12,726 bases of DNA from a virus (lineage: Duplodnaviria > Heunggongvirae > Uroviricota > Caudoviricetes), in the IMG/VR virus record IMGVR_UViG_3300014846_000084. One strand, 5' to 3'. Made by a program: the position numbers and the translations under genes. Shown in pieces: positions 1 through 12,726 of this stretch (position 1 is its first letter; every line of letters begins with the position of its first letter). A model generated the notes under the pieces. It saw nothing but the letters and a program-made list of their open reading frames with translations. It searched no databases and was not told where the DNA came from.

Positions 1-1230
1 ATGAGCAGAGCACTTAACAAACTGAGCGATACACAGCTGAGGAAAATCAACGGCACACCCGCCCAAAAAACAGCCTTTCTTAATGACGGTGGAAACCTGA
101 GCGTCAGGCATTCAACCAGCGGCCTTTTAACCTGGTATTTCACCTACAGGGCCGGAACGGGAAGGGGAGCACGACCGGAACGGATTAAGCTGGGAAATTA
201 TCCTGATCTGAGTCTGAAAGCTGCCAGGGAAAAAGCGGCACAGTGTCGCGCTTGGCTTGCTGAGGGGAAAAATCCACGTCATGAGATGAATTACACCGTA
301 CAGAAAGCGTTAAAGCCCGTAACGGTTGGCGATGCGCTTACCTACTGGCTTGAGTCTTACGTAAAGGAAAACCGCGTGGATTATGCCGCCCTGAAAAAGC
401 GCCTTAATAATCACGTAATACAGCACATTGGTGCTATGCCGCTGGATAAATGCGAGCTACGGCACTGGCTGGCCTGTTTTGACCAGGTGGCAAAGCGAAC
501 GCCTGTTACTGCCGGATTCTTGCTACAGACGTGCAAACAGGCGCTTAAGTTCTGCCGGAGGCGGCGCTATGCAATCAGCAACGTTCTTGATGATATGAGT
601 GTGGCGGACGTTGGGAAAAAACCGGATATAAGCGAGCGTGTCTTAAGCACCAAAGAACTTGGCGAATTATTGCAGGCACTGGACAAAAAAATATTTTCCC
701 CTTACTACGTCGCACTAATCCGCCTCCTGATTGTTTTTGGATGCCGGACGGTAGAACTGAGGTTATCGGAGATCAGCGAGTGGGATTTTACCGAAATGCT
801 CTGGACCGTGCCGAAAGAACACAGCAAAACGAAGGTGGCAATATTCCGGCCCATACCGGAAGCAATACTGCCGTTCGTCACGCAGCTGGTGGAGCAGAAC
901 AGGCACACGGGCTTATTGCTGGGGGAAGTGAAACAGGAAACAAGCGTGTCGCAGTACGGCAGATTAGCGCACAGGAGGCTAAAACACCCTCACTGGTCAC
1001 TGCATGACATCCGGCGCACCTTTACAACGATGCTGAACGATTTAGGCGTGGATCCTCACGTCGTGGAGCAGCTTACAGGTCATCAGATGCCAGGGATGCA
1101 ACGAGTCTATAACCATTCCCGTTATCTGGATGCGAAACGTGACGCGCTGGATATGTGGACGGAGCGGTTAGGGATACTGGCGGGAACACATGAAAACGTA
1201 ACCACATTGCCAATAGCCAGAGAAATATAA
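1..1230 (+). CDS. int: Tyrosine site-specific integrase, P4-like family (409 aa)
   Basis: Full-length ORF from the track. C-terminal catalytic motifs are readable in the translation: R in GCRTVELRL, H-x-x-R in SLHDIRRTF, Y in QRVYNHSRY. N-terminal region resembles the arm-binding domain of P4-type integrases. Upstream start context is outside the window. Confidence 0.9.
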   Translation: MSRALNKLSDTQLRKINGTPAQKTAFLNDGGNLSVRHSTSGLLTWYFTYRAGTGRGARPERIKLGNYPDLSLKAAREKAAQCRAWLAEGKNPRHEMNYTVQKALKPVTVGDALTYWLESYVKENRVDYAALKKRLNNHVIQHIGAMPLDKCELRHWLACFDQVAKRTPVTAGFLLQTCKQALKFCRRRRYAISNVLDDMSVADVGKKPDISERVLSTKELGELLQALDKKIFSPYYVALIRLLIVFGCRTVELRLSEISEWDFTEMLWTVPKEHSKTKVAIFRPIPEAILPFVTQLVEQNRHTGLLLGEVKQETSVSQYGRLAHRRLKHPHWSLHDIRRTFTTMLNDLGVDPHVVEQLTGHQMPGMQRVYNHSRYLDAKRDALDMWTERLGILAGTHENVTTLPIAREI

Positions 1231-1257
1231 TTTTTTTTGCGATTTTTCAGGATGCGG

Positions 1258-1315
1258 ACAACGTGAAACAACGAGACACAACGACGAACAACAAGGAACA
1301 AAATGGAACAACGGG
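1258..1315. repeat. Tandem array of six phased 10-bp repeats (consensus about ACGnGGAACA, ACAAC core every 10 bp) immediately 3' of int
   Basis: ACAAC at 1258, 1268, 1278, 1288, 1308 and the variant ACAAA at 1298, exactly 10 bp apart. Top strand is almost entirely A/C/G. Confidence 0.6.
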
Positions 1316-1595
1316 TTAAAAATCAGCCATCGTAATAACCATTTGATTTTTATAGGTGTACTGTTTTTTTATACACTGGCGAATCACTCTTAAAAATATG
1401 TAAAAAAGGCGTAAAAGTAAAATTTTATGCCTTTGCATCATAATGAATTAAAAGAGTTTTTATTCTCATTCCCCCTGCTTCTGTAAAACGACCGCCGCCA
1501 GTGTTTGCCATTCCACAAACACCCTGACACAATCCGACACAACCCAACCCAATAATCCACCCAATGACTCTTTAAGAAACAACAAAGGGGGAATT

Positions 1596-1784
1596 GTGTT
1601 AAGCACAGATCGCTTTATACGTGAAAAAGAATGTCAGCAACTTACAGGCCTGAGCCGCTCATGTCGGTACCGCCTGGAAAAAGCCGGACAATTCCCATCA
1701 CGGCGTAAGCTGGGCGGTCGTTCCGTTGGCTGGTCTTTATCCGAAGTTCTGGCATGGAAGGACAGCTGCGAGGCAGTTCACTAA
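1596..1784 (+). CDS. alpA: AlpA-family (Vis/excisionase-like) HTH transcriptional regulator, 62 aa, GTG start
   Basis: Translation LTGLSRSCRYRLEKAGQFP...GWSLSEVLAWK matches the AlpA/MerR-like winged HTH pattern. Strong SD (AAAGGGGGA) 5 to 8 nt upstream of the GTG at 1596. Confidence 0.85.
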   Translation: MLSTDRFIREKECQQLTGLSRSCRYRLEKAGQFPSRRKLGGRSVGWSLSEVLAWKDSCEAVH

Positions 1785-1836
1785 TCAGGCTGGCGGCACA
1801 CAGCCGCCACCCATCCACTAATACAGAGATCTAACC

Positions 1837-3039
1837 ATGAATACTGGATATTCTCCCGAACAAGGGCGGGGCTTCGTTCGTCCTGAAAAACAGAATCTGC
1901 AAAATTTTGCCGAAATTATTCCGGTTATTTCCGGCCTTACTGGCGGGAGTGAAACCAATATTGTTAACGCCAGAGCGTTGCAGATGTTTGATGATAAAAA
2001 GGGAGTAAATTTAACTTACACCCCTGACGGCAATCAGAATATGAGCATTATCTCTGAGTCAGGTTTCTACAAACTAATAAAAACAAAAAGCGCCCCGTTG
2101 CCGGAGCGCCTTTGTGAACAATTAACCTACTGCGCAAAAAATGAATCTGAGCAGTGGGATTATATCAACCATGTGGAGAAGCGCCACAATTGCCGAATAA
2201 CGGGCAAAACAAAGGCCACCCGCTACGGTGGCCCCTCGACACAAGCTACACGTTATCCCCAACGCATGAGCATTGCCAACAATGCCACATTTGCGGCTGG
2301 TGGGCAATGCAATCAGTCTGGTTCAGTTCGTTGCCATACCTGCAATGAGCGCTTTTCCCTGTACTCTTTAAGGAATTGCTCAAGGGCAAAAGCACATGGC
2401 GCGAATCTTTCTGATTCATGCTCTATCTTTCTGCGCCGTCTTTTCCGTGCCGGTGATAATGTTTTGGTCAATTCTTTATCGGTCATTGTGTTGTCCTGCA
2501 TAGCAATGCGCCGTAATACCTTACACCACGGCGCTGATGGTGATTACTCTGGTTCTTTGGTCTTGCGGCGCTGGAGTTCTTCACGTGCGACAGTGACGAG
2601 CTGCCCGATCTCCTCGGCGGCTTTGATTCCGAGTTTTTCCACCTGCGCCAGTGCATCGAGCGAAGAAACTAGGGGATTTTCTCCACTTCCTTCTGCCTGG
2701 CGCCGGGCGATCTCACCGCGTACAGCCGTAACTATAAAATTCGCTTTAGTTTCCCCTGGCTGTAGGGATGCCTCAATGCCACTCACTACTTCATGTGGAA
2801 ATCTGGCATTCAGTTGCTGTGACTTATTGTTAACAGAACTCCTGGACATGTTTGCACCTCCCATTAATAACGGGATGCAGTGTAATACAAAAGTGAATAC
2901 CAAAAAAGACTTGAAATGGTATTCACCTAAATGTAATGTGAATACCACAAGTGCTGATACATGCAATTCAGCAATTGAAACGACGAAGCCCCGCACTGTT
3001 GGAGCAGTAACGGGGCTTCTAACCAACAACGTAAACTAG
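1837..3039 (+). CDS. Hypothetical ORF with a Bro-N/KilA-N-like segment in the first ~110 aa. The 3' boundary is uncertain: the open frame runs 400 codons, but the distal two thirds look like non-coding antisense of the minus-strand regulator gene. Possible pseudogene or mis-extended ORF.
   Basis: N-terminal translation contains KGVNLTYTPDGNQNMSIISESGFYKLIKTKS, which resembles the conserved Bro-N core. From about residue 150 the composition turns S/C/R-rich and overlaps a well-supported gene on the opposite strand. Weak SD before the ATG at 1837. Confidence 0.3.
   Translation: MNTGYSPEQGRGFVRPEKQNLQNFAEIIPVISGLTGGSETNIVNARALQMFDDKKGVNLTYTPDGNQNMSIISESGFYKLIKTKSAPLPERLCEQLTYCAKNESEQWDYINHVEKRHNCRITGKTKATRYGGPSTQATRYPQRMSIANNATFAAGGQCNQSGSVRCHTCNERFSLYSLRNCSRAKAHGANLSDSCSIFLRRLFRAGDNVLVNSLSVIVLSCIAMRRNTLHHGADGDYSGSLVLRRWSSSRATVTSCPISSAALIPSFSTCASASSEETRGFSPLPSAWRRAISPRTAVTIKFALVSPGCRDASMPLTTSCGNLAFSCCDLLLTELLDMFAPPINNGMQCNTKVNTKKDLKWYSPKCNVNTTSADTCNSAIETTKPRTVGAVTGLLTNNVN
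2313..2486 (-). CDS. Possible small basic protein (57 aa, MTDKELTKTLSPARKRRRRK...), downstream of the RHH gene on the minus strand
   Basis: ORF in the track (2313..2501) trimmed to the second ATG, which has an AGGA about 8 nt upstream. Composition is protein-like but there is no recognisable family. Overlaps the open + frame of the preceding feature. Confidence 0.2.
   Translation of the reverse strand: MTDKELTKTLSPARKRRRRKIEHESERFAPCAFALEQFLKEYREKRSLQVWQRTEPD
2544..2849 (-). CDS. Ribbon-helix-helix (Arc/MetJ-like) DNA-binding regulator, about 101 aa; candidate island repressor
   Basis: Track ORF 2544..3029 trimmed to the internal ATG at 2849, which has a strong SD (GGGAGGTG) 5 nt upstream. 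N-terminal segment LNARFPHEVVSGIEASLQPGETKANFIVTAVRGEI fits an RHH beta-strand/helix pattern. Transcribed divergently from the downstream operon. Confidence 0.7.
   Translation of the reverse strand: MSRSSVNNKSQQLNARFPHEVVSGIEASLQPGETKANFIVTAVRGEIARRQAEGSGENPLVSSLDALAQVEKLGIKAAEEIGQLVTVAREELQRRKTKEPE
2893..2947. promoter_or_regulatory. Operator-like triple repeat GTGAATACCA (direct 2893-2902, inverted 2918-2927, direct 2938-2947) in the divergent intergenic region between the RHH gene and the 3048 operon
   Basis: Three exact copies of a 10-mer in alternating orientation, within about 55 bp, lying between two divergent start codons (2849 minus, 3048 plus). Confidence 0.5.
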
Positions 3040-3047
3040 GAGCCGTT

Positions 3048-3248
3048 ATGGTTGCCGTAAATCATATACCACACCTTGTACACACACAAACGGCCTTTGT
3101 GTGGCGTTTTCTGGCACTGAGTGCCGGAGAATCTCAAATCATCCACGTAACCGCCTGGACGGAACGCGAAGCGCGTAGCCGTTGCCCGTCAGGTTGTGTT
3201 GCTGTATTTGCCGCTCGTATTCGTCAGGGGAAAACCTATGCACAATAA
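3048..3248 (+). CDS. Hypothetical small protein (66 aa), first gene of a coupled operon leading to the primase
   Basis: AGGAG SD at 3038-3042, 5 nt before the ATG. Stop overlaps the start of the next ORF. Confidence 0.5.
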   Translation: MVAVNHIPHLVHTQTAFVWRFLALSAGESQIIHVTAWTEREARSRCPSGCVAVFAARIRQGKTYAQ

Positions 3249-3477
3249 AACCACACCGGACGCAGCAGCCGCCGCGCTCACTACGCTGATGCACGCGCTT
3301 ATTGATATTTCTGTTATTGCTGACAGGGCGCATAAGCACGCCACCAGTGAAACAGAATATGCCGGGGCTTTCGTTCCTCATTCGCTGGCGGTTATGCAAC
3401 TTAGTGCGGATATGGCGCTGAATGAGGCCAAAGCCATCCTGATTGCTGATTGTGAAAATGGGGGGGGTTATGCGTGA
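3238..3477 (+). CDS. Hypothetical small protein (79 aa, MHNKTTPDAAAAALTT...)
   Basis: Track ORF 3196..3477 trimmed to the ATG at 3238, which overlaps the upstream stop and has AGGGGA upstream. Alanine/helix-rich, protein-like composition. Confidence 0.5.
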   Translation: MHNKTTPDAAAAALTTLMHALIDISVIADRAHKHATSETEYAGAFVPHSLAVMQLSADMALNEAKAILIADCENGGGYA

Positions 3478-3703
3478 TGATCGTTTTAATTCCCTGAAAC
3501 AGGAATTTTCCGACGTTCCTGATGATGCGGCTGATGCGCTTTCGTCAATGCCAGAGCTTATTAGAGCGGCTTTTTTCTTACTTTCCACGAGAGAATATAA
3601 ATCAACGGGGCTTGATGTACTGAATATCGCCGCCGATTATGCGGAATATGTGGCAGAGGCGCATTACAGAAGAAAATTTCCTGAGGATGTAAGCCATGCG
3701 TGA
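3470..3703 (+). CDS. Hypothetical small acidic protein (77 aa, MRDDRFNSLKQEF...)
   Basis: Track ORF 3443..3703 trimmed to the ATG at 3470, which overlaps the upstream stop in the motif ATGCGTGA. G-rich SD upstream. Confidence 0.55.
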   Translation: MRDDRFNSLKQEFSDVPDDAADALSSMPELIRAAFFLLSTREYKSTGLDVLNIAADYAEYVAEAHYRRKFPEDVSHA

Positions 3704-3929
3704 TATTTACCACGAAACAATAGACCGCGCATTTCTTGCACTTTCTCACAGTGAAAACATGCTGGAAATATTGCGCATATGGCTTGAAACACTTGGCGAC
3801 AATGAACGCGACAAACAAAAATCAAGAATTGCCACGGCATTAATAACGCTTCTTGATCCTGTAATAATGGAACTGCAAGAAATAGATCTATTGCACGACA
3901 GATATAAAGAACAGCACACCGGAGAATAA
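3696..3929 (+). CDS. Hypothetical small protein (77 aa, MRDIYHETIDRAF...)
   Basis: ATG at 3696 overlaps the upstream stop in the same ATGCGTGA arrangement. GAGGA SD at about 3682. Confidence 0.55.
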   Translation: MRDIYHETIDRAFLALSHSENMLEILRIWLETLGDNERDKQKSRIATALITLLDPVIMELQEIDLLHDRYKEQHTGE

Positions 3930-3934
3930 AAATA

Positions 3935-4234
3935 ATGAAACTTAAATATTCTGGCTTAACTGCCAGTGGCAACACTCACCCTAAATTTACGCGCGGTGAT
4001 ATTTACCGCGACCAGTACGGCGGCACGGTAATGATTAAGGGCGTGGAGGAACGTCGCGTAACTTACCGCCGTGAAGGCTACGAATATGATTGCGTGATGC
4101 CTGTTTATCAGTTCGACCGTGATTTTTCTCTTGTGCAGGCCGTACCGCGTAACGTGCCCACCAGCAGGGAGAAAGCACGCGCCAATATTCAGAAGATGAA
4201 AACCATGATTAACGGATTCAGGGGTAAAAAATGA
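3935..4234 (+). CDS. Hypothetical protein (99 aa), translationally coupled to the primase gene (ATGA overlap)
   Basis: Track ORF with GGAGA SD upstream. Its stop overlaps the primase ATG at 4231. Confidence 0.6.
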   Translation: MKLKYSGLTASGNTHPKFTRGDIYRDQYGGTVMIKGVEERRVTYRREGYEYDCVMPVYQFDRDFSLVQAVPRNVPTSREKARANIQKMKTMINGFRGKK

Positions 4235-5985
4235 AACTGGCACCGAACGTAAAACAGCAGTCACGCGGCATAAAACACAAAGAAACAGAAGTCATTATTT
4301 TTGCGGGTAGTGATGCCTGGTCACACGCAAAACAATGGCAGGAACATGACGCGCGTATGGCCGGAGATAATGAGCCTCCTGTGTGGCTTGGGGAGCAGCA
4401 GTTATCCGAACTGGATAAGCTGCAAATTGTGCCGGAAGGCAGAAAATGCGTACGAATATTCAGGGCCGGACATCTTGCGCCAGTAATGATAAAGGCGATT
4501 GGTCAGAAGCTGGCGGCGGCTGGCGTACAGGATGCAAATTTTTATCCTGAGGGTATGCACGGCCAGGAGGTGCAGAACTGGCGCGAATATCTGGCCCGTG
4601 AGCGACAGAATCTTTCTGATGGTCTGGTCATTGAGCTTCCGGTAAAGCAAAAGGCGCAACTTTCTCAGATGGCGGACAGTGAGCGCGCGCAGCTGCTTTC
4701 CGGGCGCTTTGATGGCGTTTGCGTGCATCCTGAAAGTGAAATCGTCCACGTCTGGCGCGGCGGGGGATGGTGTCCGGTCAGCACAATGGAACTGAGCCGC
4801 GAAATGGTGGCGATCTATTCAGAGCACAGGGCCACTTTCAGCAAGCGCGTAATCAATAACGCCGTGGAAGCGTTAAAAGTTATTGCCGAACCAATGGGCG
4901 AGCCGTCCGGTGATTTACTGCCGTTCGCCAATGGTGCGCTTGACCTGAAAACGGGGGAATTTTACCCGCACACGCCGGAGAACTGGATCACCACGCACAA
5001 CGGCATTGAGTACACGCCACCAGCACCAGGGGAGAACATCCGCGATAACGCGCCAAACTTTCATAAATGGCTTGAGCACGCAGCCGGAAAAGACCCGCGC
5101 AAGATGATGCGTATATGTGCCGCGCTGTACATGATTATGGCGAACCGGTACGACTGGCAGATGTTTATTGAGGCCACCGGAGATGGCGGGAGCGGTAAAA
5201 GTACATTCACGCACATAGCCAGCCTTCTGGCAGGGAAACAGAACACGGTAAGCGCTGAAATGACATCGCTTGATGATGCTGGTGGACGTGCGCAGGTTGT
5301 CGGGAGTCGTCTTATCGTCCTGGCTGACCAGCCGAAATATACAGGCGAAGGAACGGGCATCAAGAAAATCACGGGCGGTGACCCTGTGGAAATTAACCCG
5401 AAATACGAAAAGCGTTTCACGGCTGTAATCAGAGCGGTGGTGCTGGCGACCAACAATAACCCGATGATATTCACCGAACGGGCCGGAGGTGTGGCACGTC
5501 GTCGCGTGATTTTCCGTTTCGACAATATCGTCAGTGAGGCCGAAAAAGACAGGGAGCTACCGGAAAAGATTGCGGCTGAAATCCCTGTCATTATCCGCCG
5601 ATTGCTGGCGAACTTTACCGACCCTGAGAAGGCACGGGCTTTACTACTGGAACAGCGTGACGGTGATGAAGCTCTGGCAATAAAGCAACAGACGGATCCG
5701 GTTATTGAGTTTTGCCAGTTCCTGAATTTTCTGGAGGAAGCACGCGGCCTGATGATGGGCGGCGGTGGCGATTCAGTGAAGTACACGACCAGAAACAGCC
5801 TTTACCGCGTCTATCTGGCGTTTATGGCGTACGCAGGCAGGAGCAAACCGCTAAACGTAAATGACTTTGGCAAGGCTATGAAGCCAGCCGCGAAAGTTTA
5901 CGGACATGAATATATTACGCGGAAAGTTAAGGGAGTAACGCAGACTAACGCAATAACAACAGACGATTGCGACGCGTTTTTATAA
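4231..5985 (+). CDS. Phage/plasmid primase-helicase, P4 alpha-like (D5_N plus P-loop NTPase C-terminal region), 584 aa; probable replication initiator of the island
   Basis: Walker A reads EATGDGGSGKST and a Walker-B-like RLIVLADQ follows. Overall size and layout match P4-family primase C-terminal domain proteins. The iteron array starts directly after the stop. Confidence 0.88.
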   Translation: MKLAPNVKQQSRGIKHKETEVIIFAGSDAWSHAKQWQEHDARMAGDNEPPVWLGEQQLSELDKLQIVPEGRKCVRIFRAGHLAPVMIKAIGQKLAAAGVQDANFYPEGMHGQEVQNWREYLARERQNLSDGLVIELPVKQKAQLSQMADSERAQLLSGRFDGVCVHPESEIVHVWRGGGWCPVSTMELSREMVAIYSEHRATFSKRVINNAVEALKVIAEPMGEPSGDLLPFANGALDLKTGEFYPHTPENWITTHNGIEYTPPAPGENIRDNAPNFHKWLEHAAGKDPRKMMRICAALYMIMANRYDWQMFIEATGDGGSGKSTFTHIASLLAGKQNTVSAEMTSLDDAGGRAQVVGSRLIVLADQPKYTGEGTGIKKITGGDPVEINPKYEKRFTAVIRAVVLATNNNPMIFTERAGGVARRRVIFRFDNIVSEAEKDRELPEKIAAEIPVIIRRLLANFTDPEKARALLLEQRDGDEALAIKQQTDPVIEFCQFLNFLEEARGLMMGGGGDSVKYTTRNSLYRVYLAFMAYAGRSKPLNVNDFGKAMKPAAKVYGHEYITRKVKGVTQTNAITTDDCDAFL

Positions 5986-5997
5986 TTTGTTGCAATG

Positions 5998-6225
5998 GCT
6001 GTCTACCCTGTCTACCTGAGTAAAGAAAAATACATTTAATTCAGTACATTAACTTAGGTAGACAGCCTTTTTTCACTGTCTACCTACTATCTACCCTCTC
6101 TACCTGATTTTACCTGAATCAGACAGGGAGGTAGATACGGGGTAGATAGTGGATAAAAGCACTCTACCCTACTGAAAGCCGCGCCATTACTGGCATGGTG
6201 GCCAGTAAGGTAGATAAGGTAGACA
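5998..6225. repeat. Iteron array, candidate origin of replication: about 12 copies of GGTAGA(C/T)A / T(G)TCTACC in both orientations flanking an AT-rich spacer
   Basis: CTGTCTACC at 5999-6007, 6008-6016 and 6076-6084; GGTAGACAG at 6057-6065; TCTACC at 6090 and 6099; GGTAGATA at 6130, 6141 and 6209; GGTAGACA at 6218. AT-rich stretch at 6018-6056. Confidence 0.6.
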
Positions 6226-6273
6226 AGGGGAGGCACAACTCAAAACTTTTTAAACGAGGGGGTAAAAATAAAA

Positions 6274-6525
6274 ATGCGCACATCAGGAAAACTTAATAAT
6301 CAGAAGAAGCAGCATAACCGCGCCATTGACCTTACAGAGCACTGGCTGAGAGTGGCGATAAAAATCATCGACCGCAACACGGGGGAAGGATACGCGAAAG
6401 CACATCCCGACCTGATAAGCGCATTCATGACCACGGCGGCGGCAAACTTTGCCACGCTGACAGAACGGGAGATTGCCGAAGCGGAACAGGTAACAACCAT
6501 CAACGTTAAAAGCGCTGGAGAATAA
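6274..6525 (+). CDS. Hypothetical protein (83 aa)
   Basis: Track ORF. GAGGGGG SD at 6256-6262. Followed by an intrinsic terminator. Confidence 0.55.
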   Translation: MRTSGKLNNQKKQHNRAIDLTEHWLRVAIKIIDRNTGEGYAKAHPDLISAFMTTAAANFATLTEREIAEAEQVTTINVKSAGE

Positions 6526-6543
6526 CCGAAGAAGTGAGCACAT

Positions 6544-6568
6544 AGCCGGAGCAATCCGGCTTTTTTTC
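6544..6568 (+). terminator. Rho-independent terminator (AGCCGGA-gcaa-TCCGGCT followed by a T7 run)
   Basis: 7-bp GC-rich stem with a 4-nt loop and a run of seven T immediately after, 20 nt past the stop of the 6274 ORF. Confidence 0.6.
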
Positions 6569-6655
6569 GATCTCATATATCTTAAAAGATGGTTAATTAA
6601 TGATAATCTATCGAAAATACTGGTTATGTAATGATAAGTATCAGGAGAAAACAAA

Positions 6656-6850
6656 GTGGAAGAGATAAAGCAAAGCGCTACCGTGATGATTGATCATGAA
6701 ATCCTTAACGAGCTTAAAAAGTTGCAGTTCGATATTGTGCGCCGGATGAATGAATCAGGTATCTACGGCAGGGCGGCAACACCAACAATAGGGCATCTTG
6801 CGCGCGTACTGTTACGCGAACGCCTGGGCATTGCAACAAGTGAGGCGTAA
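6656..6850 (+). CDS. Hypothetical small protein (64 aa), GTG start; first gene of the putative late/packaging operon
   Basis: Track ORF. CAGGAG SD at about 6642. Preceded by an AT-rich promoter-like stretch at 6570-6650. Confidence 0.5.
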   Translation: MEEIKQSATVMIDHEILNELKKLQFDIVRRMNESGIYGRAATPTIGHLARVLLRERLGIATSEA

Positions 6851-6853
6851 ACA

Positions 6854-7015
6854 ATGGCTATCACAGAACGCGAGGCAAGCATCATTAAGGCCATTGGCGA
6901 GGAAACAAGAGACACCATAGCGCCATTGATGGAAAAGATCGCAGAGCTTGAGACACGAATAAACAAGCTGAGTAATGAAGTTGAAGGCCTGATCTCGTTA
7001 CTCGGTGAGCAATGA
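6854..7015 (+). CDS. Small predicted coiled-coil protein (53 aa, MAITEREASIIKAIGEETRDTIAPLMEKIAELETRINKLSNEVEGLISLLGEQ); absent from the ORF track, which appears to omit ORFs under 60 aa
   Basis: Translated by hand. ATG lies 4 nt after the upstream stop, with a GAGG about 9 nt upstream. Heptad-like charged/hydrophobic pattern. Confidence 0.4.
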   Translation: MAITEREASIIKAIGEETRDTIAPLMEKIAELETRINKLSNEVEGLISLLGEQ

Positions 7016-7143
7016 CATGGGGGGGAGTGTTCCGGCCGGAAAGTCGATCTCCCTGGACACCGCCCCCCGTCTCATTCGTAGAAAATTTTGCTTTTCAAAA
7101 AAGTTACACGAAAAGTTACACCCCCTCAAAACGAGGTTTTTGC

Positions 7144-7632
7144 ATGGCATTAACGACCAAAAAAAAGCGGTTTGCTGATGCGTTATCAAGGGGCGCAAAT
7201 CCCACGGAAGCCGCTATACATGCGGGATACAGCGAAAAGACCGCAAGGGTTAAAGGCTGGCAGCTATCCAACGATCCTGAGGTGAAAAAGTATCTTAAGG
7301 CTGTAACTCCTGATGTAACTTTTCAGGTTACAAAACCGAAAAAAGTTACAAAGAAAGTTACCGAAAAAGTTACACCGGAACGGGCATCAATTAACACCAT
7401 TGAGATGATGGATAACGGCCTACCCGACCCCATCAAAGCAATGGGCAGGATACTGATTGACAACATGGACACAGATCCAAAACTGGCTTTAGATGCCGCG
7501 TTTAAGCTGGCCCAGTTCACCCACCGCAAGATCGGCAGCATTGGGAAAAAAGAGGTTAAAAAACTCAATGCCGCTAGTGTCTCCTCAAATCGGTTCCCCA
7601 TCCCTAAGCCACCAACAGGCTTAAAACACTGA
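7144..7632 (+). CDS. terS: Terminase small subunit (TerS, Terminase_2-like), 162 aa
   Basis: Track ORF 7012..7632 trimmed to the internal ATG at 7144, which has a GAGG SD. N-terminus FADALSRGANPTEAAIHAGYSEKTARVKGWQLSNDPEV matches the conserved TerS HTH signature (AGYS..TA). The upstream 44 codons of the track ORF are GC-rich, structured, non-coding-looking sequence. Confidence 0.8.
   Translation: MALTTKKKRFADALSRGANPTEAAIHAGYSEKTARVKGWQLSNDPEVKKYLKAVTPDVTFQVTKPKKVTKKVTEKVTPERASINTIEMMDNGLPDPIKAMGRILIDNMDTDPKLALDAAFKLAQFTHRKIGSIGKKEVKKLNAASVSSNRFPIPKPPTGLKH
7303..7375. repeat. Cluster of six GTTAC/GTAAC pentamer-containing repeats spaced about 12 bp apart inside terS (encoding the repetitive KVT linker); candidate pac/TerS recognition site
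   Basis: GTAAC at 7303 and 7315; GTTAC at 7328, 7345, 7357 and 7369. Two further AAAAGTTACAC copies lie just upstream of the terS start (GTTACAC at 7103-7109 and 7115-7121). Confidence 0.45.
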
Positions 7633-7643
7633 GGTAGCGAACT

Positions 7644-7805
7644 ATGAGCGAATACATCACAGACCCTATTGATGTACTCACGGAAATCATGAACGACAAG
7701 CAGCAGTCGACCGAAATACGGTTACAGGCCGCCGCTATTCTGATGCCATATTTTCACGAAACACTAAACCCGTGCTTCCAAGAGGAGGAAGAAGATGATC
7801 TGTAA
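7644..7805 (+). CDS. Small acidic protein (53 aa, MSEYITDPIDVLTEIMNDKQQSTEIRLQAAAILMPYFHETLNPCFQEEEEDDL); absent from the ORF track
   Basis: Translated by hand. ATG at 7644 lies 11 nt after the terS stop, with a GAGG about 9 nt upstream. Its 3' end overlaps the start of the capsid-like gene by 11 nt. Confidence 0.4.
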   Translation: MSEYITDPIDVLTEIMNDKQQSTEIRLQAAAILMPYFHETLNPCFQEEEEDDL

Positions 7806-8718
7806 AAACATGAAAGGCGTGTCAGCAGTTCGCGCCGCCAGCGTGCTGGCATCGTGTAAATTTAGCCATGCTGACGCTATAGAGATGACGAAAAGAAATG
7901 ATCCGGCAGTATCGTTATTTCTTGAAAAATCCGTAGTAGCAGGAATGAACACGGATAACATGCCGTCGCTGGTGGCAGAGCCGATAGTAAGAGAGCTTGG
8001 CGAGTATATTTTTTCGCAGTCTGTACCAGGCAAGCTAATCAGCAGCGCGCTAAATCTTCCGTTTGGCGCAAAATTGCAGTCAATATCAGGCAAGGGTAGT
8101 AAATGGCTTAAAGAGGCCGAAGAAATCCCAGTCAAAGAGGGAGAAGTAAACGAAAGCGCGCTAAAACTGTGCAAACTCGGCGCTATTGTGATGCTGAATA
8201 ACGAGCTAATCAAATTTAGCACCCCTGGTACCAATTCAGCGATCAGAGACTTGATCACATCGGAATCGGTGAAAGAAATAGATAAAAAATTTCTTTCCAG
8301 TGACCAGGAGGTGGCTGGCGTATCCCCTGAGGGCGTGCTTAATGGTGCTGATGAGGCCGAAAACTTCATAGAGCTTTTCAAAAAGCACATAGCGAACGGT
8401 AACACGCTTGCCACGTCGTCGCTAATCTTGCCCGTAGAAAACGCCTTACAGCTTACTGATGCTGAGTTCTGGCAGATAGAGCTTTTGAGAATACCGGTAA
8501 TTGTGAGCGAACAGGCGGATCTCATGATGCTGATAGACGCTAAAAAGCTGATTATTAACGTTGAAGCCACGGTTATAACCCCAACTGATGAGGCGGTAAT
8601 AAAAACCGAATCAGGGACGGTTAGCCTTTTCCAGAATGACGCTACAGCGTTCATGGCAATCACCTATTGCGGATGGCAAAAACTCGATAAGGCCGTCACC
8701 GTTCTGGCGAAAAGCTGA
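7795..8718 (+). CDS. HK97-fold major capsid protein homolog (307 aa), putative; possibly a capsid-redirecting MCP paralog given the absence of other head genes
   Basis: AGGAGG SD 7 nt upstream of the ATG. The overall pattern, especially the C-terminal region (LRIPVIVSEQADLMMLIDAKKLIINVEATVITPT...SLFQNDATAFMAITYCGWQ), resembles HK97-type major capsid proteins. Assignment is by eye only. Confidence 0.55.
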   Translation: MICKNMKGVSAVRAASVLASCKFSHADAIEMTKRNDPAVSLFLEKSVVAGMNTDNMPSLVAEPIVRELGEYIFSQSVPGKLISSALNLPFGAKLQSISGKGSKWLKEAEEIPVKEGEVNESALKLCKLGAIVMLNNELIKFSTPGTNSAIRDLITSESVKEIDKKFLSSDQEVAGVSPEGVLNGADEAENFIELFKKHIANGNTLATSSLILPVENALQLTDAEFWQIELLRIPVIVSEQADLMMLIDAKKLIINVEATVITPTDEAVIKTESGTVSLFQNDATAFMAITYCGWQKLDKAVTVLAKS

Positions 8719-8732
8719 TTTTTCCGGCATCA

Positions 8733-8762
8733 ATCCCGATATGGTGATCCCCATATCGGGAT
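8733..8762. other. Perfect 12-bp inverted repeat hairpin (ATCCCGATATGG-tgatcc-CCATATCGGGAT) 15 nt after the capsid-like gene stop; possible weak terminator, RNA element or protein-binding site
   Basis: Arms at 8733-8744 and 8751-8762 are exact reverse complements. Followed by AT-rich sequence but not a clean T-run. Confidence 0.4.
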
Positions 8763-8805
8763 AATTACGAAATTTTCGCAGTTTAATAGCTGACCAGGTG
8801 GAGAA

Positions 8806-9087
8806 ATGACAGAAGCCGAAATACTGGGATTAATCCGCCGCGTTGCCGGAATCAGCAAGCAGGCCGACGAACAGGCCACGCAGCCGGACAGCGTGACCGC
8901 CGAAAATTATGTGCGTGTTGTTGCTGAGGTGATGCGCCGTGATGGTATCCAGCTTAATGATGTGGATATGCGCAACATACGGATCCGCGTTCTTGAAATG
9001 CTGGCCTACAATCGCCGCGTTGAACTGTATCGGGAGAAAGAAAAAATTACGTACCACTGGAAGAAGCCGGAGCGGTTACGGCGTTAA
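8806..9087 (+). CDS. Hypothetical protein (93 aa), last gene of the island
   Basis: Track ORF. AGGTGGAG SD at 8796-8803. Balanced, protein-like composition. Confidence 0.55.
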   Translation: MTEAEILGLIRRVAGISKQADEQATQPDSVTAENYVRVVAEVMRRDGIQLNDVDMRNIRIRVLEMLAYNRRVELYREKEKITYHWKKPERLRR

Positions 9088-9093
9088 CGAGTA

Positions 9094-9138
9094 GTGACAT
9101 ACCGTGACGGAGAGTGACAACCAGTGACACAACGTGAC
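9094..9138. repeat. Tandem array of five phased 10-bp repeats (GTGAC every 10 bp; consensus nnnGTGACAn) at the island terminus
   Basis: GTGAC at 9094, 9104, 9114, 9124 and 9134. Contains the octamer GACACAAC (9126-9133), which also occurs at 1275-1282 and 1536-1543. Confidence 0.6.
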
Positions 9139-9390
9139 AAAAAGACGGTATTTAAACAGGGGGAGTATTTAATACCCCTCCCACCAGCCTGATTAACATT
9201 TAACCGGAAAAAAAATCCGGTACCATGATGGCAGACGCTAGGGCAATCATTGCTGAAATTGCACACTTTTTAAGCAAATCATTTTAGTTATACGTTTGGT
9301 TATACGATTTAAAAGTTGAATCAAGCATATTTATTAAAATCATGTAGTTACACGCTAAATTAAACTACTCTCGTGCCAAAAATCCCAAGA

Positions 9391-9419
9391 AAAAACCAAC
9401 CCTTACGGTTGGTTTTTTT
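9391..9419. terminator. Bidirectional intrinsic terminator (AACCAACC-cttac-GGTTGGTT flanked by an A-run and a T-run); serves the convergent autotransporter gene and probably the island's rightward transcripts
   Basis: Perfect 8-bp stem (9394-9401 / 9407-9414) with a 5-nt loop, a T7 run on the + strand and an A-run upstream that gives a T-run on the minus strand. Lies about 60 nt past the autotransporter stop. Confidence 0.7.
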
Positions 9420-9480: not shown

Positions 9481-12072
9481 TCAGAACGTCCAGACCACAC
9501 CCGCCTGAGTATTCCACGGCGATTCTACCCCTGCGCCATTGCCATAGCTGACTGACAAATGACCGCTTAACGTCGGGGTAAACGATGACCTTATACCAGC
9601 CTGATAAACGCCACTGGTTCCAGCCACATCATTATTAAATTTGCCATCGTCATTAACTTTCACCTGGTTAGAATCGGCGTATTCCTGACGCACGGCCGCT
9701 TTCAGCCAGGGTTCCAGCGTCGTACCGTTTTGCAGGTCCATGTGATAGCTTACCGCCGTTCCCGCTTCAGCGCGTAATATCCGGGTATTTCCCACATCCG
9801 CGCGCATGCCGTTTGATAACGTGTAGTCCTGACCATCTGTGGTAAAGCCGGTAAAGGCCAGATAGGGTCTAACACTCCACAATCCGTCAACCCAACGGAA
9901 CCCGCTCTCAACATGAGCACCCGCGCCGTTACTATTGTAATCGCCAAACGCTGTTGCCCCATTACTCATCTTGCCATGGATGGTGTTGGCAAAACGGTCA
10001 ACTTTCACCACCCCATCAACATAGGCACCGTTCTGATGCTCCCAACCGGCATAAGCCCCCAGGGTATAGCTATCGATATTACCTTTGCCGCCGCGATCAA
10101 AACCAATATCAGAATGAGAGTAACCAAAGATCAAGCCGCGAATTGTACTGCTTTCTTCACGGGAGAAACGGCTATCGATACCGAGCGTCAGGCCCGTCAA
10201 TGTTTGCTCAAAACCAGCTCCCGCATCAGTGGTCACGTTGTTGCGGGTGTTAATTGCCGAACTCCACATCGCCGTATCGTAACTAACGCCTTTTACGCTA
10301 CCAAGACGCTCACGCACGGTGTCCAGTTCTGCATCAAATACCAGCGGTTGTGCGGCCGCCATATTCAGCACATCAGTGGTTGAAGGGGTAATTTGCGCGC
10401 GATTCTCTGCCAGACTCCAGCTATGGTTGCCATTATCCAGCAAGGTATATTCATACGTACCGATATCAACAACGCCTCCGGCATTGCCCAACGTAAATGC
10501 AGCATCACCGCCGCCCGTTGTTACCAGTGTAAGGCTATCTCCTGCTGCCGGGCTGGCACCGGTGTCCGTCACGAATATTTTGAAATCACCTGTTGCCTGA
10601 CCGGTGACGTTGAGCTGATCGCTCTGATGATTAGCCATATCGGTACGCATATAAAAATTGCCGTTTCCCGACAGGGTATTGGTGGTCAACGTAATGAAAT
10701 TTTCCGCACTTGCCGTCACTGATGAACGAGTCACTGGCTCATCCATCATAATCACATTTGCGTCAGACATCGCAAGGTTGGCTAAGTTGAGGAGGGTGTT
10801 TTGGTTCGTCGTAGTGATATCGGCAATGATGGTCCATACGCTATTTTCGAGCGAAACGTCCGCTTTGCTGGTATCCACGGCACCATTCGTTCTAAAAGAA
10901 GCGCCCTCAGAAACCACTACCTTACCCACCAACATTGCGGGTGCATAATTTATTTGCGGCTTCATGACCTCAAGAATGCCATCATTCCCTCTGACTGAAA
11001 CGTTAACCATTGTGCCAGCCCAGACGTTAGCGCGGCCATTGTTGATAACCATATTTTCAGAGATGGCTTTTGAGGAATACGTGATACTTCCATTCTGATA
11101 TGATCGACCGAGATCATATACCGCATTTGCCTGCACTTTCGTACCAGTATCCTTTCCCAGCGATTGCATAGTGGCATGCTTATCAAGGATAGTATCAATG
11201 GCCTGCGTGTCCTCCATAACAATGAGCCCGGAACCATCATCCAGTTCATAATTTTTTGACACACCATCTTTTATACTAAATTGGCCTTTACTGTTTGGAC
11301 CACTCACTTCCAGCGCATTCGTTGAGACAATTAATTTTCCGCCTGCTTTTTTATCAACGCCAGTTACAGTCCCGCCATCCATAACCTCCAGTAAGCCGCC
11401 ACTATCTACAGTGGTATTATAAGCGAAGTCATTTTCTTCAACTCGCAAACTTCCGCCGTTTTCCAACAACATATTATTAGCAATACCATTCTTGATATCG
11501 AACTGACCGAGACGGTTTGTTCCGAATACCTCCATGGCCCGCGTGGTTGTTTTAATAGCACCGCCTGCTTTCTGATCTACCGCAAATGCAAATCCCCCCT
11601 CTTTAACCTCCAGTAGTCCTCCCTTTTCGATAGCGACAAAGACGGCCCCCCCATCTTTTTCAACGATTAAGCGCCCGCCTTTAATCGTGGTATCATTCGC
11701 TGCGCCATAAACCTGTAGCACACCATTATTGAGCGTAGTCTGGTTTGCCGCGCCACCCATTTGAACAATTTGATAACCGTCATTTAATACTGAGTATTCT
11801 GCGGCGCCATTCATTTCAATGTACTGATACCCTCCGTTAATTTCAGTATTATTACTTACACCAAATTCTTTTATATGCTGTTCTCCGCCAGGATTGATTT
11901 TCGTATTATTGGCGGTCCCATAAACCAGCTGGATATCTTTTTCCAGGACAACACCATCAACTGTCTCACCATACTCAACAGTTGATGCCAATGCTATGGG
12001 TGAATATAACGCTGTAGCCACCAGAACAGATATTGCGGAACGACAAAGAGAAACAGAACCAGATTGATGCAT
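9481..12072 (-). CDS. AIDA-I-type (type Va) autotransporter adhesin, 863 aa, with signal peptide, repeat-rich passenger and C-terminal beta-barrel translocator
   Basis: N-terminal signal-peptide-like segment (LCRSAISVLVATALYSPIALAST). Passenger region has recurring glycine-rich repeats (e.g. NTKINPGGEQ, NTEINGGYQY, IVEKDGGAVF, LEVKEGGFAF). C-terminal about 280 aa has alternating aromatic/hydrophobic beta-strand pattern and ends ...AGVVWTF, typical of autotransporter beta-domains. Confidence 0.88.
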   Translation of the reverse strand: MHQSGSVSLCRSAISVLVATALYSPIALASTVEYGETVDGVVLEKDIQLVYGTANNTKINPGGEQHIKEFGVSNNTEINGGYQYIEMNGAAEYSVLNDGYQIVQMGGAANQTTLNNGVLQVYGAANDTTIKGGRLIVEKDGGAVFVAIEKGGLLEVKEGGFAFAVDQKAGGAIKTTTRAMEVFGTNRLGQFDIKNGIANNMLLENGGSLRVEENDFAYNTTVDSGGLLEVMDGGTVTGVDKKAGGKLIVSTNALEVSGPNSKGQFSIKDGVSKNYELDDGSGLIVMEDTQAIDTILDKHATMQSLGKDTGTKVQANAVYDLGRSYQNGSITYSSKAISENMVINNGRANVWAGTMVNVSVRGNDGILEVMKPQINYAPAMLVGKVVVSEGASFRTNGAVDTSKADVSLENSVWTIIADITTTNQNTLLNLANLAMSDANVIMMDEPVTRSSVTASAENFITLTTNTLSGNGNFYMRTDMANHQSDQLNVTGQATGDFKIFVTDTGASPAAGDSLTLVTTGGGDAAFTLGNAGGVVDIGTYEYTLLDNGNHSWSLAENRAQITPSTTDVLNMAAAQPLVFDAELDTVRERLGSVKGVSYDTAMWSSAINTRNNVTTDAGAGFEQTLTGLTLGIDSRFSREESSTIRGLIFGYSHSDIGFDRGGKGNIDSYTLGAYAGWEHQNGAYVDGVVKVDRFANTIHGKMSNGATAFGDYNSNGAGAHVESGFRWVDGLWSVRPYLAFTGFTTDGQDYTLSNGMRADVGNTRILRAEAGTAVSYHMDLQNGTTLEPWLKAAVRQEYADSNQVKVNDDGKFNNDVAGTSGVYQAGIRSSFTPTLSGHLSVSYGNGAGVESPWNTQAGVVWTF

Positions 12073-12269
12073 TGAGCTTTCATCCTATGAAATTAATTGC
12101 TGTTAAAAGCATTGGGTACAGAAAATACCCATAGCTCCATACCCGGAGTCAGTTTTTAAAAACTGTTTAAAGAAATGCACAAGTATTGTGATTGATTTTT
12201 TAGTTGTTTTTCTTGATGAGAAGCTGATGCAAAATTCCGTCTTTATAATGAAAATGATGCCAAAGCGAA

Positions 12270-12726
12270 TAGACTGGCCCCCTGAATCTCCAGACAACCA
12301 ATATCACTTAAATAAGTGATAGTCTTAATACTAGTTTTTAGACTAGTCATTGGAGAACAGATGATTGATGTCTTAGGGCCGGAGAAACGCAGACGGCGTA
12401 CCACACAGGAAAAGATCGCAATTGTTCAGCAGAGCTTTGAACCGGGGATGACGGTCTCCCTCGTTGCCCGGCAACATGGTGTAGCAGCCAGCCAGTTATT
12501 TCTCTGGCGTAAGCAATACCAGGAAGGAAGTCTTACTGCTGTCGCCGCCGGAGAACAGGTTGTTCCTGCCTCTGAACTTGCTGCCGCCATGAAGCAGATT
12601 AAAGAACTCCAGCGCCTGCTCGGCAAGAAAACGATGGAAAATGAACTCCTCAAAGAAGCCGTTGAATATGGACGGGCAAAAAAGTGGATAAAGCACGCGC
12701 CCTTATTGCCCGGGGATGGGGAGTAA
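12270..12726 (+). mobile_element. IS2 (IS3 family) insertion sequence, left end only; IRL begins about 12270 and the element continues beyond the window
   Basis: Sequence from about 12270 (TAGACTGGCCCCCTGAATCTCCAGACAACC...) matches my recollection of the IS2 left inverted repeat, and the downstream ORF matches IS2 orfA. Recognised from memory, not from a search. Confidence 0.8.
12361..12726 (+). CDS. insC: IS2 transposase OrfA (InsC-like HTH protein), 121 aa
   Basis: Track ORF 12316..12726 trimmed to the ATG at 12361, which has a GGAGAACAG SD-like sequence upstream. Translation [40 protein letters not shown]... is the IS2/IS3-family OrfA as I recall it. Confidence 0.88.

What the first reader, a model, noticed from the sequence alone, without database searches (positions are those of the whole stretch)
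12073..12300. IS2 inserted about 200 bp upstream of the autotransporter start, next to a perfect 16-bp palindrome
The IS2 left end begins about 198 bp upstream of the autotransporter ATG at 12072, and the perfect palindrome CAGTTTTTAAAAACTG (12150-12165) lies between them. IS insertions in promoter regions can silence or activate adhesin genes, so this may alter expression of the autotransporter.
Basis: partly seen in the sequence, partly recalled or inferred. Interest (0 to 1): 0.4.

Follow-up and report, generated by a model that had tools for sequence, protein, structure and literature searches.

The report
IS2 in the yejO–narP control region
An ordinary IS2 jumping gene has landed in the short shared control region between the E. 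coli adhesin-like gene yejO and the nitrate/nitrite regulator gene narP; it most likely cuts off narP's mapped upstream promoter rather than changing yejO, and the nearby 16-bp palindrome shows no sign of being a conserved control site.

Summary
yejO (863 aa, intact) starts at 12072 on the minus strand. The perfect palindrome lies at 12150-12165. The IS2 left end starts at 12270, preceded by GCGAA.

In the one complete genome with the same junction, IS2 is 1,331 bp, flanked by a 5-bp GCGAA duplication, and followed 127 nt later by narP. So the element sits in the 319-bp divergent yejO-narP region, which is uninterrupted in 5,354 of 5,426 complete E. coli genomes.

The published distal narP start site (-150) maps to window 12242. 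IS2 therefore cuts that transcript at +28, inside the +1..+50 leader needed for one form of RprA control. The roughly 113-nt narP-proximal block, conserved across genera, stays intact. I found no hybrid promoter at the junction.

The yejO promoter is unmapped, and the 197 nt upstream of yejO are unchanged.

The palindrome is 104 nt from IS2. It is only modestly improbable, is mutated in B2 strains and E. albertii, and is absent wherever yejO is absent.

At least five independent IS2-family insertions fall within 80 bp here, which suggests a regional hot spot. This is an ordinary kind of event with no expression data.

The parts
9481..12072 (-). yejO, an intact AIDA-type autotransporter gene of 863 aa; ATG at 12072
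   Evidence: ORF list. Pfam AIDA, Pertactin and Autotransporter hits. Annotated 'autotransporter YejO' in matching RefSeq genomes. The exact protein is found in public assemblies.
12073..12269 (.). Retained yejO-proximal 197 nt of the 319-nt yejO-narP divergent intergenic region. It is 33% G+C and identical to the K-12-type empty site.
   Evidence: Sequence, alignment and composition. The empty site is intact in 5,354 of 5,426 complete genomes.
12150..12165 (.). Perfect 16-bp palindrome CAGTTTTTAAAAACTG. It lies 78-93 nt upstream of the yejO ATG, at -92..-77 relative to the distal narP TSS, and 104 nt from IS2.
   Evidence: It is not conserved in LF82/AVS0068 (CAGTTTTAAAAAACTG), ECMA0423 or E. 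albertii. It is absent in Escherichia species that lack yejO.
12228..12249 (+). Core of the narP distal promoter region. It holds TG+CAAAAT (12228-12235, an extended -10-like element), the published distal TSS position (12242) and a perfect TATAAT (12244-12249).
   Evidence: The TSS position is derived from the 150-nt 5' UTR stated in PMC9262595 and mapped onto the sequence. The hexamer assignments are my inference from the sequence.
12242..12269 (+). First 28 nt of the distal narP transcript, now separated from the rest of the narP leader by IS2
   Evidence: coordinates. [quoted passage not shown]
12265..12269 (.). Left copy of the 5-bp target-site duplication GCGAA
   Evidence: The window shows GCGAA immediately before IS2. 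In L001 the same GCGAA flanks both ends of a 1,331-bp IS2, and the empty site carries a single GCGAA.
12270..12726 (+). Left 457 nt of IS2 (IS3 family): the left terminal repeat from 12270 and the orfA/insA reading frame 12361-12726. The element is cut by the end of the window.
   Evidence: Left-end string match. 455/457 identity to complete IS2 copies. HTH_Tnp_1 hit. PGAP annotation 'IS3-like element IS2 family transposase' in L001/L002.

Best explanation
This is a genuine IS2 transposition into the 319-bp divergent control region shared by yejO (leftward) and narP (rightward).

Shown. The left end of IS2 faces yejO at 12270. The target is GCGAA. In the one complete genome with the identical junction, the element is 1,331 bp long, is flanked by GCGAA on both sides, and its right end lies 127 nt from the narP ATG, with the transposase reading toward narP.

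Inferred. The insertion point is +28/+29 of the narP transcript that starts at the published distal TSS. The distal promoter is therefore moved more than 1.3 kb away from narP and must read through IS2. The +1..+50 leader segment needed for one mode of RprA repression is split.

The roughly 113 nt immediately upstream of narP stay intact. This block is conserved across Escherichia, Citrobacter and Salmonella, and it is the only narP upstream DNA in Escherichia species that lack yejO. narP is therefore probably still expressed from a proximal promoter, at a reduced or differently regulated level.

No hybrid promoter is evident at the IS2 right end. yejO keeps its 197 upstream nt, including the palindrome, so its expression is most likely little changed. 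It would change only if its unmapped promoter uses sequence beyond -197.

The palindrome is probably part of the AT-rich yejO upstream DNA and not a constrained operator.
For: Structure: searches give the left end at 12270, the 1,331-bp IS2 in L001, the GCGAA duplication and narP downstream. Searches show the same junction in independent assemblies of ERR526049.

narP promoter and leader: PMC9262595 states a 150-nt 5' UTR from the most distal TSS. It describes active PnarP(-207+50)-lacZ fusions and shows that the first 50 nt of the leader suffice for a second RprA control. maps the TSS to IGR 170 (window 12242) and the insertion to IGR 197/198.

The K-12 intergenic sequence is 100% identical to the empty site, and the window's 197 nt match it, so K-12 mapping transfers.

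Proximal block: searches show that conservation starts about -113. In E. ruysiae, E. whittamii and Escherichia sp. E1V33, tRNA-Pro and its terminator sit directly upstream of that block. Strain EC36 has naturally deleted everything left of about IGR 197 yet keeps an intact narP.

NarP is the identical protein WP_001113637.1 in the IS2-bearing genomes L001, L002, L005, L006 and L098.

No hybrid promoter. PMC12095673 reports that the 150-bp IS2 right end has no detectable promoter activity, and that promoters more than 150 bp inside an IS give no detectable output.
Against: There are no expression data for any IS2-bearing strain.

The window stops inside IS2. That IS2 is complete and narP follows it in the source strain is inferred from NZ_CP047277.1, which lacks the window's P4-like island.

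'Most distal TSS' implies other start sites, whose positions and relative strengths I could not retrieve. If the distal TSS is minor, the effect on narP is negligible.

The stated TSS lies 2 nt upstream of a perfect TATAAT, which is an odd geometry. My -10 assignments are consensus guesses.

The K-12 TSS data come from a strain whose yejO is disrupted by IS5.

Consensus scans have little power in AT-rich DNA, so a weak hybrid or read-out promoter cannot be excluded.
Confidence: 0.55

Rival explanations
1. One reading: the IS2 insertion mainly changes yejO expression. It would either remove an upstream promoter or regulatory element, or relieve or alter silencing of the AT-rich upstream region.
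For: IS2 lies 197 nt upstream of an intact yejO. One weak yejO-direction promoter-like pair in the empty site is split by this insertion: TTGTCG, a 19-nt spacer, then CATTAT, with its -35 at IGR 198-203. yejO is among the least-detected K-12 genes (PMC10392735), which fits a silenced gene that an IS could reactivate. IS-mediated activation of silent operons is well documented (PMC9330008, PMC11894529).
Against: The yejO promoter is unmapped (PMC11677980). The split candidate is poor (8/12 matches, 19-nt spacer), and similar-scoring candidates lie inside the retained 197 nt. No new promoter-like site of any quality spans the left-end junction toward yejO. The low K-12 expression is confounded by the IS5 disruption of yejO.
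Confidence: 0.2
2. Neutral passenger: the insertion has no meaningful effect on either gene. The stretch is simply a preferred, tolerated IS2 landing zone in AT-rich intergenic DNA.
For: At least five independent IS2-family insertions fall within 80 bp: GATTG, ATGAG (two IS2 variants differing by 57 substitutions), CTGAT and GCGAA. IS1 and IS5 also hit this locus. The conserved narP-proximal block is spared by every IS2 insertion seen. narP and, in most cases, yejO remain intact.
Against: The ATGAG, CTGAT and GCGAA sites all lie within or just downstream of the mapped distal narP promoter (-26 to +28). It is hard to see how that promoter's output to narP could be unaffected. Four of the five events share one orientation, which may reflect something beyond random tolerance, or merely target geometry.
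Confidence: 0.2
3. Activation of narP: the outward-facing -35 element in the IS2 right end, or read-out transcription from IS2, creates a new promoter that raises narP expression, as in the ampC and acrEF cases.
For: IS3-family right ends carry an outward -35 used for the circle-junction promoter, and IS2 has created fusion promoters at ampC, acrEF and neo (PMC9330008; PMC12095673). In 15 of the 16 complete genomes with an IS2-family element in this region, as in the window, the right end faces narP.
Against: No -10-like hexamer lies at 15-19 nt spacing across the right-end junction in L001. The first promoter-like pair downstream is native sequence, and the tool scan found none toward narP. 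The IS2 right-end 150 bp has no detectable promoter activity by itself (PMC12095673).
Confidence: 0.05

Closest known systems
IS2 insertions that remodel promoters (ampC hybrid promoter, Jaurin & Normark 1983; acrEF activation; polar and turn-on effects in gal)
   Same: It is the same element, IS2 of the IS3 family, with a 5-bp target duplication. It is inserted in a promoter region, with the right end, which carries an outward -35, facing a downstream gene.
   Different: No correctly spaced -10 sits next to the right end here. The expected outcome is disconnection of an existing promoter or leader, not creation of a stronger one. No phenotype or expression measurement exists.
IS5K in yejO of E. 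coli K-12, and IS1 insertions at or in yejO in other strains
   Same: It is the same locus. Mobile elements repeatedly hit yejO and its upstream region.
   Different: Those insertions break the yejO coding sequence or its ribosome-binding region. The IS2 here leaves yejO and 197 nt of its upstream DNA intact and instead interrupts the narP distal leader.
narP post-transcriptional control through its 150-nt 5' UTR (RprA, SdsN137, Hfq; Brosse et al. 2022, PMC9262595)
   Same: The insertion falls at +28 of exactly this leader, within the +1..+50 segment shown to mediate a second RprA effect.
   Different: That work used K-12 with an uninterrupted leader. A natural allele split by an IS has not been examined.
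IS5-type activation of silent operons (bgl, flhDC, fucAO)
   Same: An IS inserts in AT-rich upstream DNA of a poorly expressed gene.
   Different: It is a different IS family and mechanism, and there is no evidence that yejO is activated here.

Membership tests
IS2 (IS3 family insertion sequence) | Characteristic terminal sequence at the left end (TAGACTGGCCCCC...) | tested here: met
   An exact 22-nt left-end string starts at window 12270. It is identical to the left ends of complete copies annotated as IS2 in L001, L002 and L005.
IS2 (IS3 family insertion sequence) | orfA encoding a helix-turn-helix transposase N-terminal protein, followed by an A6G slippery site for orfAB frameshifting | tested here: met
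   Window 12361-12726 gives a 121-aa product with an HTH_Tnp_1 hit, E = 2.8e-19. AAAAAAG is present at 12678-12684. That A6G is the IS2 frameshift site comes from my own knowledge. PGAP annotates a 'programmed frameshift' in the matching copies.
IS2 (IS3 family insertion sequence) | Full length of 1,331 bp with a matching right terminal repeat | not testable with these tools
   The window ends 457 nt into the element. In the complete genome with the identical junction (L001) the element is 1,331 bp and ends ...GGGGCAAATCCA.
IS2 (IS3 family insertion sequence) | 5-bp direct target-site duplication | tested here: inconclusive
   Only the left GCGAA copy (12265-12269) is in the window. L001 has GCGAA on both sides, and the empty site has a single copy. 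Other insertions in this region also show 5-bp duplications: ATGAG, CTGAT and GATTG.
AIDA-type (type Va) autotransporter: YejO | N-terminal signal peptide, passenger with AIDA/pertactin-like repeats, and a C-terminal beta-barrel translocator | tested here: met
   Pfam AIDA (2.1e-52), Pertactin (3.2e-45) and Autotransporter (2.6e-45) hits. The hydrophobic N-terminus ending ALA|ST was read from the sequence and is my inference. Adhesin function is untested.
IS-generated hybrid (fusion) promoter | An outward -35 in the IS end with a -10-like hexamer in the flank at about 16-18 nt spacing | tested here: not met
   No such pair spans either IS2 junction toward narP. Toward yejO there is only a 7/12 match with a 15-nt spacer.
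Transcription-factor operator (palindromic) | Sequence conservation above that of the flanks in orthologous regions, or a match to a known motif | tested here: not met
   The palindrome is broken in LF82/AVS0068, ECMA0423 and E. albertii, while the flanking CTGTTTAAAGAAATGCAC is better kept. There is no literature hit for the sequence. I compared it with known motifs such as Lrp and Fis only by eye, which is not a formal test.
Known structured RNA (Rfam) | A covariance-model match in the intergenic region | tested here: not met
   No Rfam hit at E <= 1 across the empty-site region on either strand. The yejO-sense 197-nt RNA folds only modestly better than shuffles, z = -2.3.

The most novel reading that the evidence does not exclude
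The 80-bp stretch between the palindrome and the conserved narP-proximal block (window 12190-12269) is a true IS2 hot spot. Repeated insertions, mostly oriented toward narP, would be retained because they uncouple narP from its E. coli-specific distal promoter and RprA-responsive leader. If so, IS2 traffic would recurrently retune the NarQ-NarP nitrate/nitrite response in gut E. coli.
Probability: 0.1. Interest if true: 0.5.

Novelty: new member of a known kind. Interest (0 to 1): 0.2.

Why it matters
If the inference holds, a natural E. coli lineage carries a narP allele that lacks its distal promoter input and part of its sRNA-responsive leader. That lineage is represented by a human rectal isolate and a human gut metagenome. 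Such strains would be ready-made material for asking how much the distal promoter and the +1..+50 leader contribute to NarP levels and to nitrate/nitrite respiration in the gut.

For yejO, an uncharacterised adhesin-like autotransporter, the case adds little. The clustering of independent IS2 insertions is a small but concrete data point on IS2 target choice. Overall this is routine IS biology.

Tried and rejected
- Genome-wide TSS tables, to place all narP and yejO start sites. The Thomason 2015 paper is not held. The Cappable-seq supplement is truncated well before 2.29 Mb. No supplements are held for PMC9262595. Darwin & Stewart 1995 is not held. As a result only the 'most distal' narP TSS could be placed.
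- Hybrid promoter at the IS2 ends. I scanned with the tool and with a laxer script. Nothing credible spans the junctions, so I rejected this as the leading mechanism.
- The palindrome as a conserved operator. I checked orthologous regions in 22 NarP loci and 9 aligned Escherichia sequences. It is not conserved, and it is absent where yejO is absent. Rfam and a literature string search were both empty.
- Assembly artefact. Rejected, because the junction recurs in a complete genome and in two independent assemblies of a metagenome run.
- 'All IS2 insertions here share one orientation.' I tested this with a synthetic inverted-junction query. One opposite-orientation case turned up (KD0845), so the claim was softened to 4 of 5 events.
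- A full census of the roughly 70 genomes with a disrupted intergenic region was not possible, because the search output lists only the top or evenly spread rows.

Full report
**1. The observation**

The window carries an 863-aa ORF on the minus strand, 9481-12072. It has AIDA, Pertactin and Autotransporter beta-domain hits. Matching RefSeq genomes annotate it as 'autotransporter YejO'.

CAGTTTTTAAAAACTG occurs once, at 12150-12165.

The IS2 left end (TAGACTGGCCCCCTGAATCTCC) starts at 12270. That leaves 197 nt between the yejO ATG and IS2.

The window ends at 12726, the stop codon of IS2 orfA, so only 457 nt of the element are visible. These match complete IS2 copies at 455/457 positions. The stated coordinates are correct.

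**2. What the interrupted DNA is**

A 1,027-nt query across the junction found exactly one complete genome among 5,426 with the junction in one piece: NZ_CP047277.1, strain N18-04097, a human rectal isolate. In that genome:
- IS2 is 1,331 bp long.
- It is flanked on both sides by GCGAA.
- narP follows 127 nt after the right end, and the transposase reads toward narP.

Genomes without the element have a single GCGAA and a 319-nt yejO-narP intergenic region. That region is present in one piece in 5,354 of 5,426 genomes and is 100% identical in K-12.

The event is therefore a standard IS2 transposition into a divergent control region.

The same junction, with the same neighbouring island, occurs in ENA and Logan assemblies of human-gut run ERR526049. 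This argues against a chimera.

**3. Consequence for narP (inferred)**

Brosse et al. 2022 (PMC9262595) state three relevant things:
- The narP 5' UTR is 150 nt from the most distal TSS, taken from dRNA-seq.
- They used active PnarP(-207+50) fusions.
- The first 50 nt of the leader suffice for a second, TIR-independent repression by RprA.

Mapping -150 onto the sequence puts the TSS at window 12242. A TG-CAAAAT element lies just upstream and a perfect TATAAT lies at 12244-12249. The IS2 insertion point is +28/+29.

IS2 therefore separates the distal promoter and the first 28 nt of the leader from narP by 1,331 bp of IS2, and a second GCGAA copy now follows the element.

I found no -35/-10 pair spanning the IS2 right end toward narP. 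Published reporter work found no detectable promoter activity in the 150-bp IS2 right end, and no output from promoters more than 150 bp inside an IS (PMC12095673).

**4. What remains for narP**

Alignment of narP upstream regions shows that cross-genus conservation begins at about -113. The species compared were E. coli, E. albertii, E. ruysiae, E. whittamii, Escherichia sp. E1V33, Citrobacter and Salmonella.

In the Escherichia species that lack yejO, tRNA-Pro(GGG) and its terminator lie immediately upstream of this block. This has two implications:
- The ancestral narP promoter is probably inside the block, which IS2 leaves intact; the insertion lies about 10 nt to its left.
- The distal TSS and the palindrome belong to the yejO-associated segment found only in E. 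coli and E. albertii.

Two further observations point the same way. Strain EC36 has deleted, between GAACGACAA repeats, the yejO 5' end and the intergenic region up to about position 197, yet keeps an intact narP. NarP is the identical protein in all the IS2-bearing genomes I examined.

I conclude that narP is likely still expressed, but without its distal-promoter input and with an altered leader.

**5. Consequence for yejO**

The yejO promoter is unmapped (PMC11677980). Strict consensus scanning finds no sigma-70-like promoter in the intergenic region.

A laxer scan finds several weak candidates:
- Most lie inside the retained 197 nt.
- One (TTGTCG, 19-nt spacer, CATTAT) is split by the insertion.

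No convincing new promoter is created at the left-end junction. An effect on yejO cannot be excluded, but it has no positive support.

**6. The palindrome**

It is perfect, and it is the only palindrome of 14 nt or longer in the window. However, window-sized first-order Markov simulations contain at least one perfect 16-mer palindrome 21% of the time. For the 197-nt spacer alone the figure is 0.9%.

Its conservation is poor:
- It is perfect in K-12-type, O157:H7, ST648 and AR_0162 sequences.
- It reads CAGTTTTAAAAAACTG in LF82 and AVS0068, where yejO is a pseudogene.
- It has a 1-nt deletion in ECMA0423.
- It differs at about four positions in E. albertii, while adjacent sequence is better conserved.

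There is no Rfam hit and no hit in the literature search. The palindrome is 104 nt from IS2 and is unaffected by it. I treat it as part of the AT-rich upstream DNA. An unknown dimeric regulator is not excluded.

**7. Recurrent IS2 insertions**

Besides GCGAA (window and L001), IS2-family elements sit at three other sites:
- ATGAG (window-equivalent 12216-12220), in L002 and L005. The two copies differ by 57 substitutions with no gaps, so they are probably separate events.
- CTGAT (12224-12228), in L006, a third variant.
- GATTG (12190-12194), in KD0845, in the opposite orientation.

In total, 15 complete genomes carry IS2 in the window's orientation and one carries it inverted.

About 18,000 IS2 places were found across the 5,426 genomes. 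A uniform model would therefore put well under one copy in any given 80 bp. This looks like a regional hot spot or a tolerated or selected site. Gene conversion between IS2 copies could inflate my count of independent events.

IS1 also occurs at the yejO ATG and inside yejO, and IS5 sits in K-12 yejO.

**8. Context**

Window 1 to about 9384 is a P4-like satellite or island integrated at tRNA-Pro proL. It encodes:
- an integrase (1-1230)
- a D5-type primase (4231-5985)
- a small terminase (7012-7632)
- a capsid-family protein (7795-8718)

A degenerate tRNA 3' remnant lies next to the proL terminator.

**9. Verdict**

The kind of event is well known. This particular allele has not, as far as I could find, been described or tested. 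Interest is low.

Noticed in passing
window 12190-12269 (equivalent sites in L002, L005, L006, L098): This stretch is a cluster of independent IS2-family insertions with 5-bp duplications. The sites are GATTG (12190-12194, inverted; KD0845), ATGAG (12216-12220; two IS2 variants differing by 57 substitutions), CTGAT (12224-12228; a third variant) and GCGAA (12265-12269; the window). Four of the five events have the right end toward narP. This suggests an IS2 regional hot spot, or selection.
   Followed up: partly
window 1-9400: A P4-like satellite or integrative island lies at tRNA-Pro (proL). It encodes a tyrosine integrase (1-1230), a DUF4222 protein (3935-4234), a D5/primase-helicase (4231-5985), a small terminase (7012-7632) and a capsid-family protein (7795-8718). 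A degenerate att/tRNA 3' remnant (CTCTCGTGCC..AAAAATCCC) lies at about 9384-9400. No complete genome in the collection combines this island with the IS2 junction.
   Followed up: partly
L010, L014, L015, L016 (1241-1500) versus L003 3374-3692: yejO and the left ~205 nt of the intergenic region form an islet. It is present in E. coli and E. albertii but absent in E. ruysiae, E. whittamii, Escherichia sp. E1V33 and one cryptic-clade 'E. coli'. In those, the proL terminator sits about 45 nt from the conserved narP-proximal block. The published distal narP TSS therefore lies in lineage-specific DNA.
   Followed up: partly
L009 2990-3020 (strain EC36): A natural deletion between two GAACGACAA repeats, one in the yejO signal-peptide codons and one at the IS2 target site, removes the yejO 5' end and the distal narP promoter while keeping narP. 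Its right boundary coincides with the window's IS2 insertion point.
   Followed up: partly
L003 3590-3625 and the aligned Citrobacter/Salmonella loci: The conserved narP-proximal block contains an inverted repeat, TTACCC-N12-GGGTAA. It is clearest in Citrobacter; in E. coli the left arm is degenerate. It resembles NarL/NarP heptamer halves and could be an autoregulatory or other operator. It lies outside the window, beyond IS2.
   Followed up: no
window 12691-12692: The IS2 orfA carries a rare GC-to-AA dinucleotide change (ATAGCGCAC to ATAAAGCAC) just downstream of the A6G slippery site. Only 1 of 6,431 matching records is 100% identical over this 97-nt stretch.
   Followed up: partly
window 12113-12131 (-) and 12134-12149 (+): Two short G+C-containing hairpins, each followed by a T-rich run, are terminator-like by the consensus scan (2 found against 0.4 expected). 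They lie between the palindrome and the yejO ATG. With the palindrome they form three consecutive hairpins in a yejO-sense RNA fold (z = -2.3). Whether they are transcribed is unknown.
   Followed up: partly
L007 1873-2650; L008 1600-2350; L004 4920-6114: Other mobile elements hit the same locus: IS1 inserted exactly at the yejO ATG (9-bp duplication TGATGCATT) in QDFD216, IS1 inside yejO in several Bangladeshi diarrhoeal isolates, and IS5K in K-12 yejO. In B2 strains (LF82, AVS0068), EC36 and KD0845, yejO is annotated as a pseudogene.
   Followed up: partly
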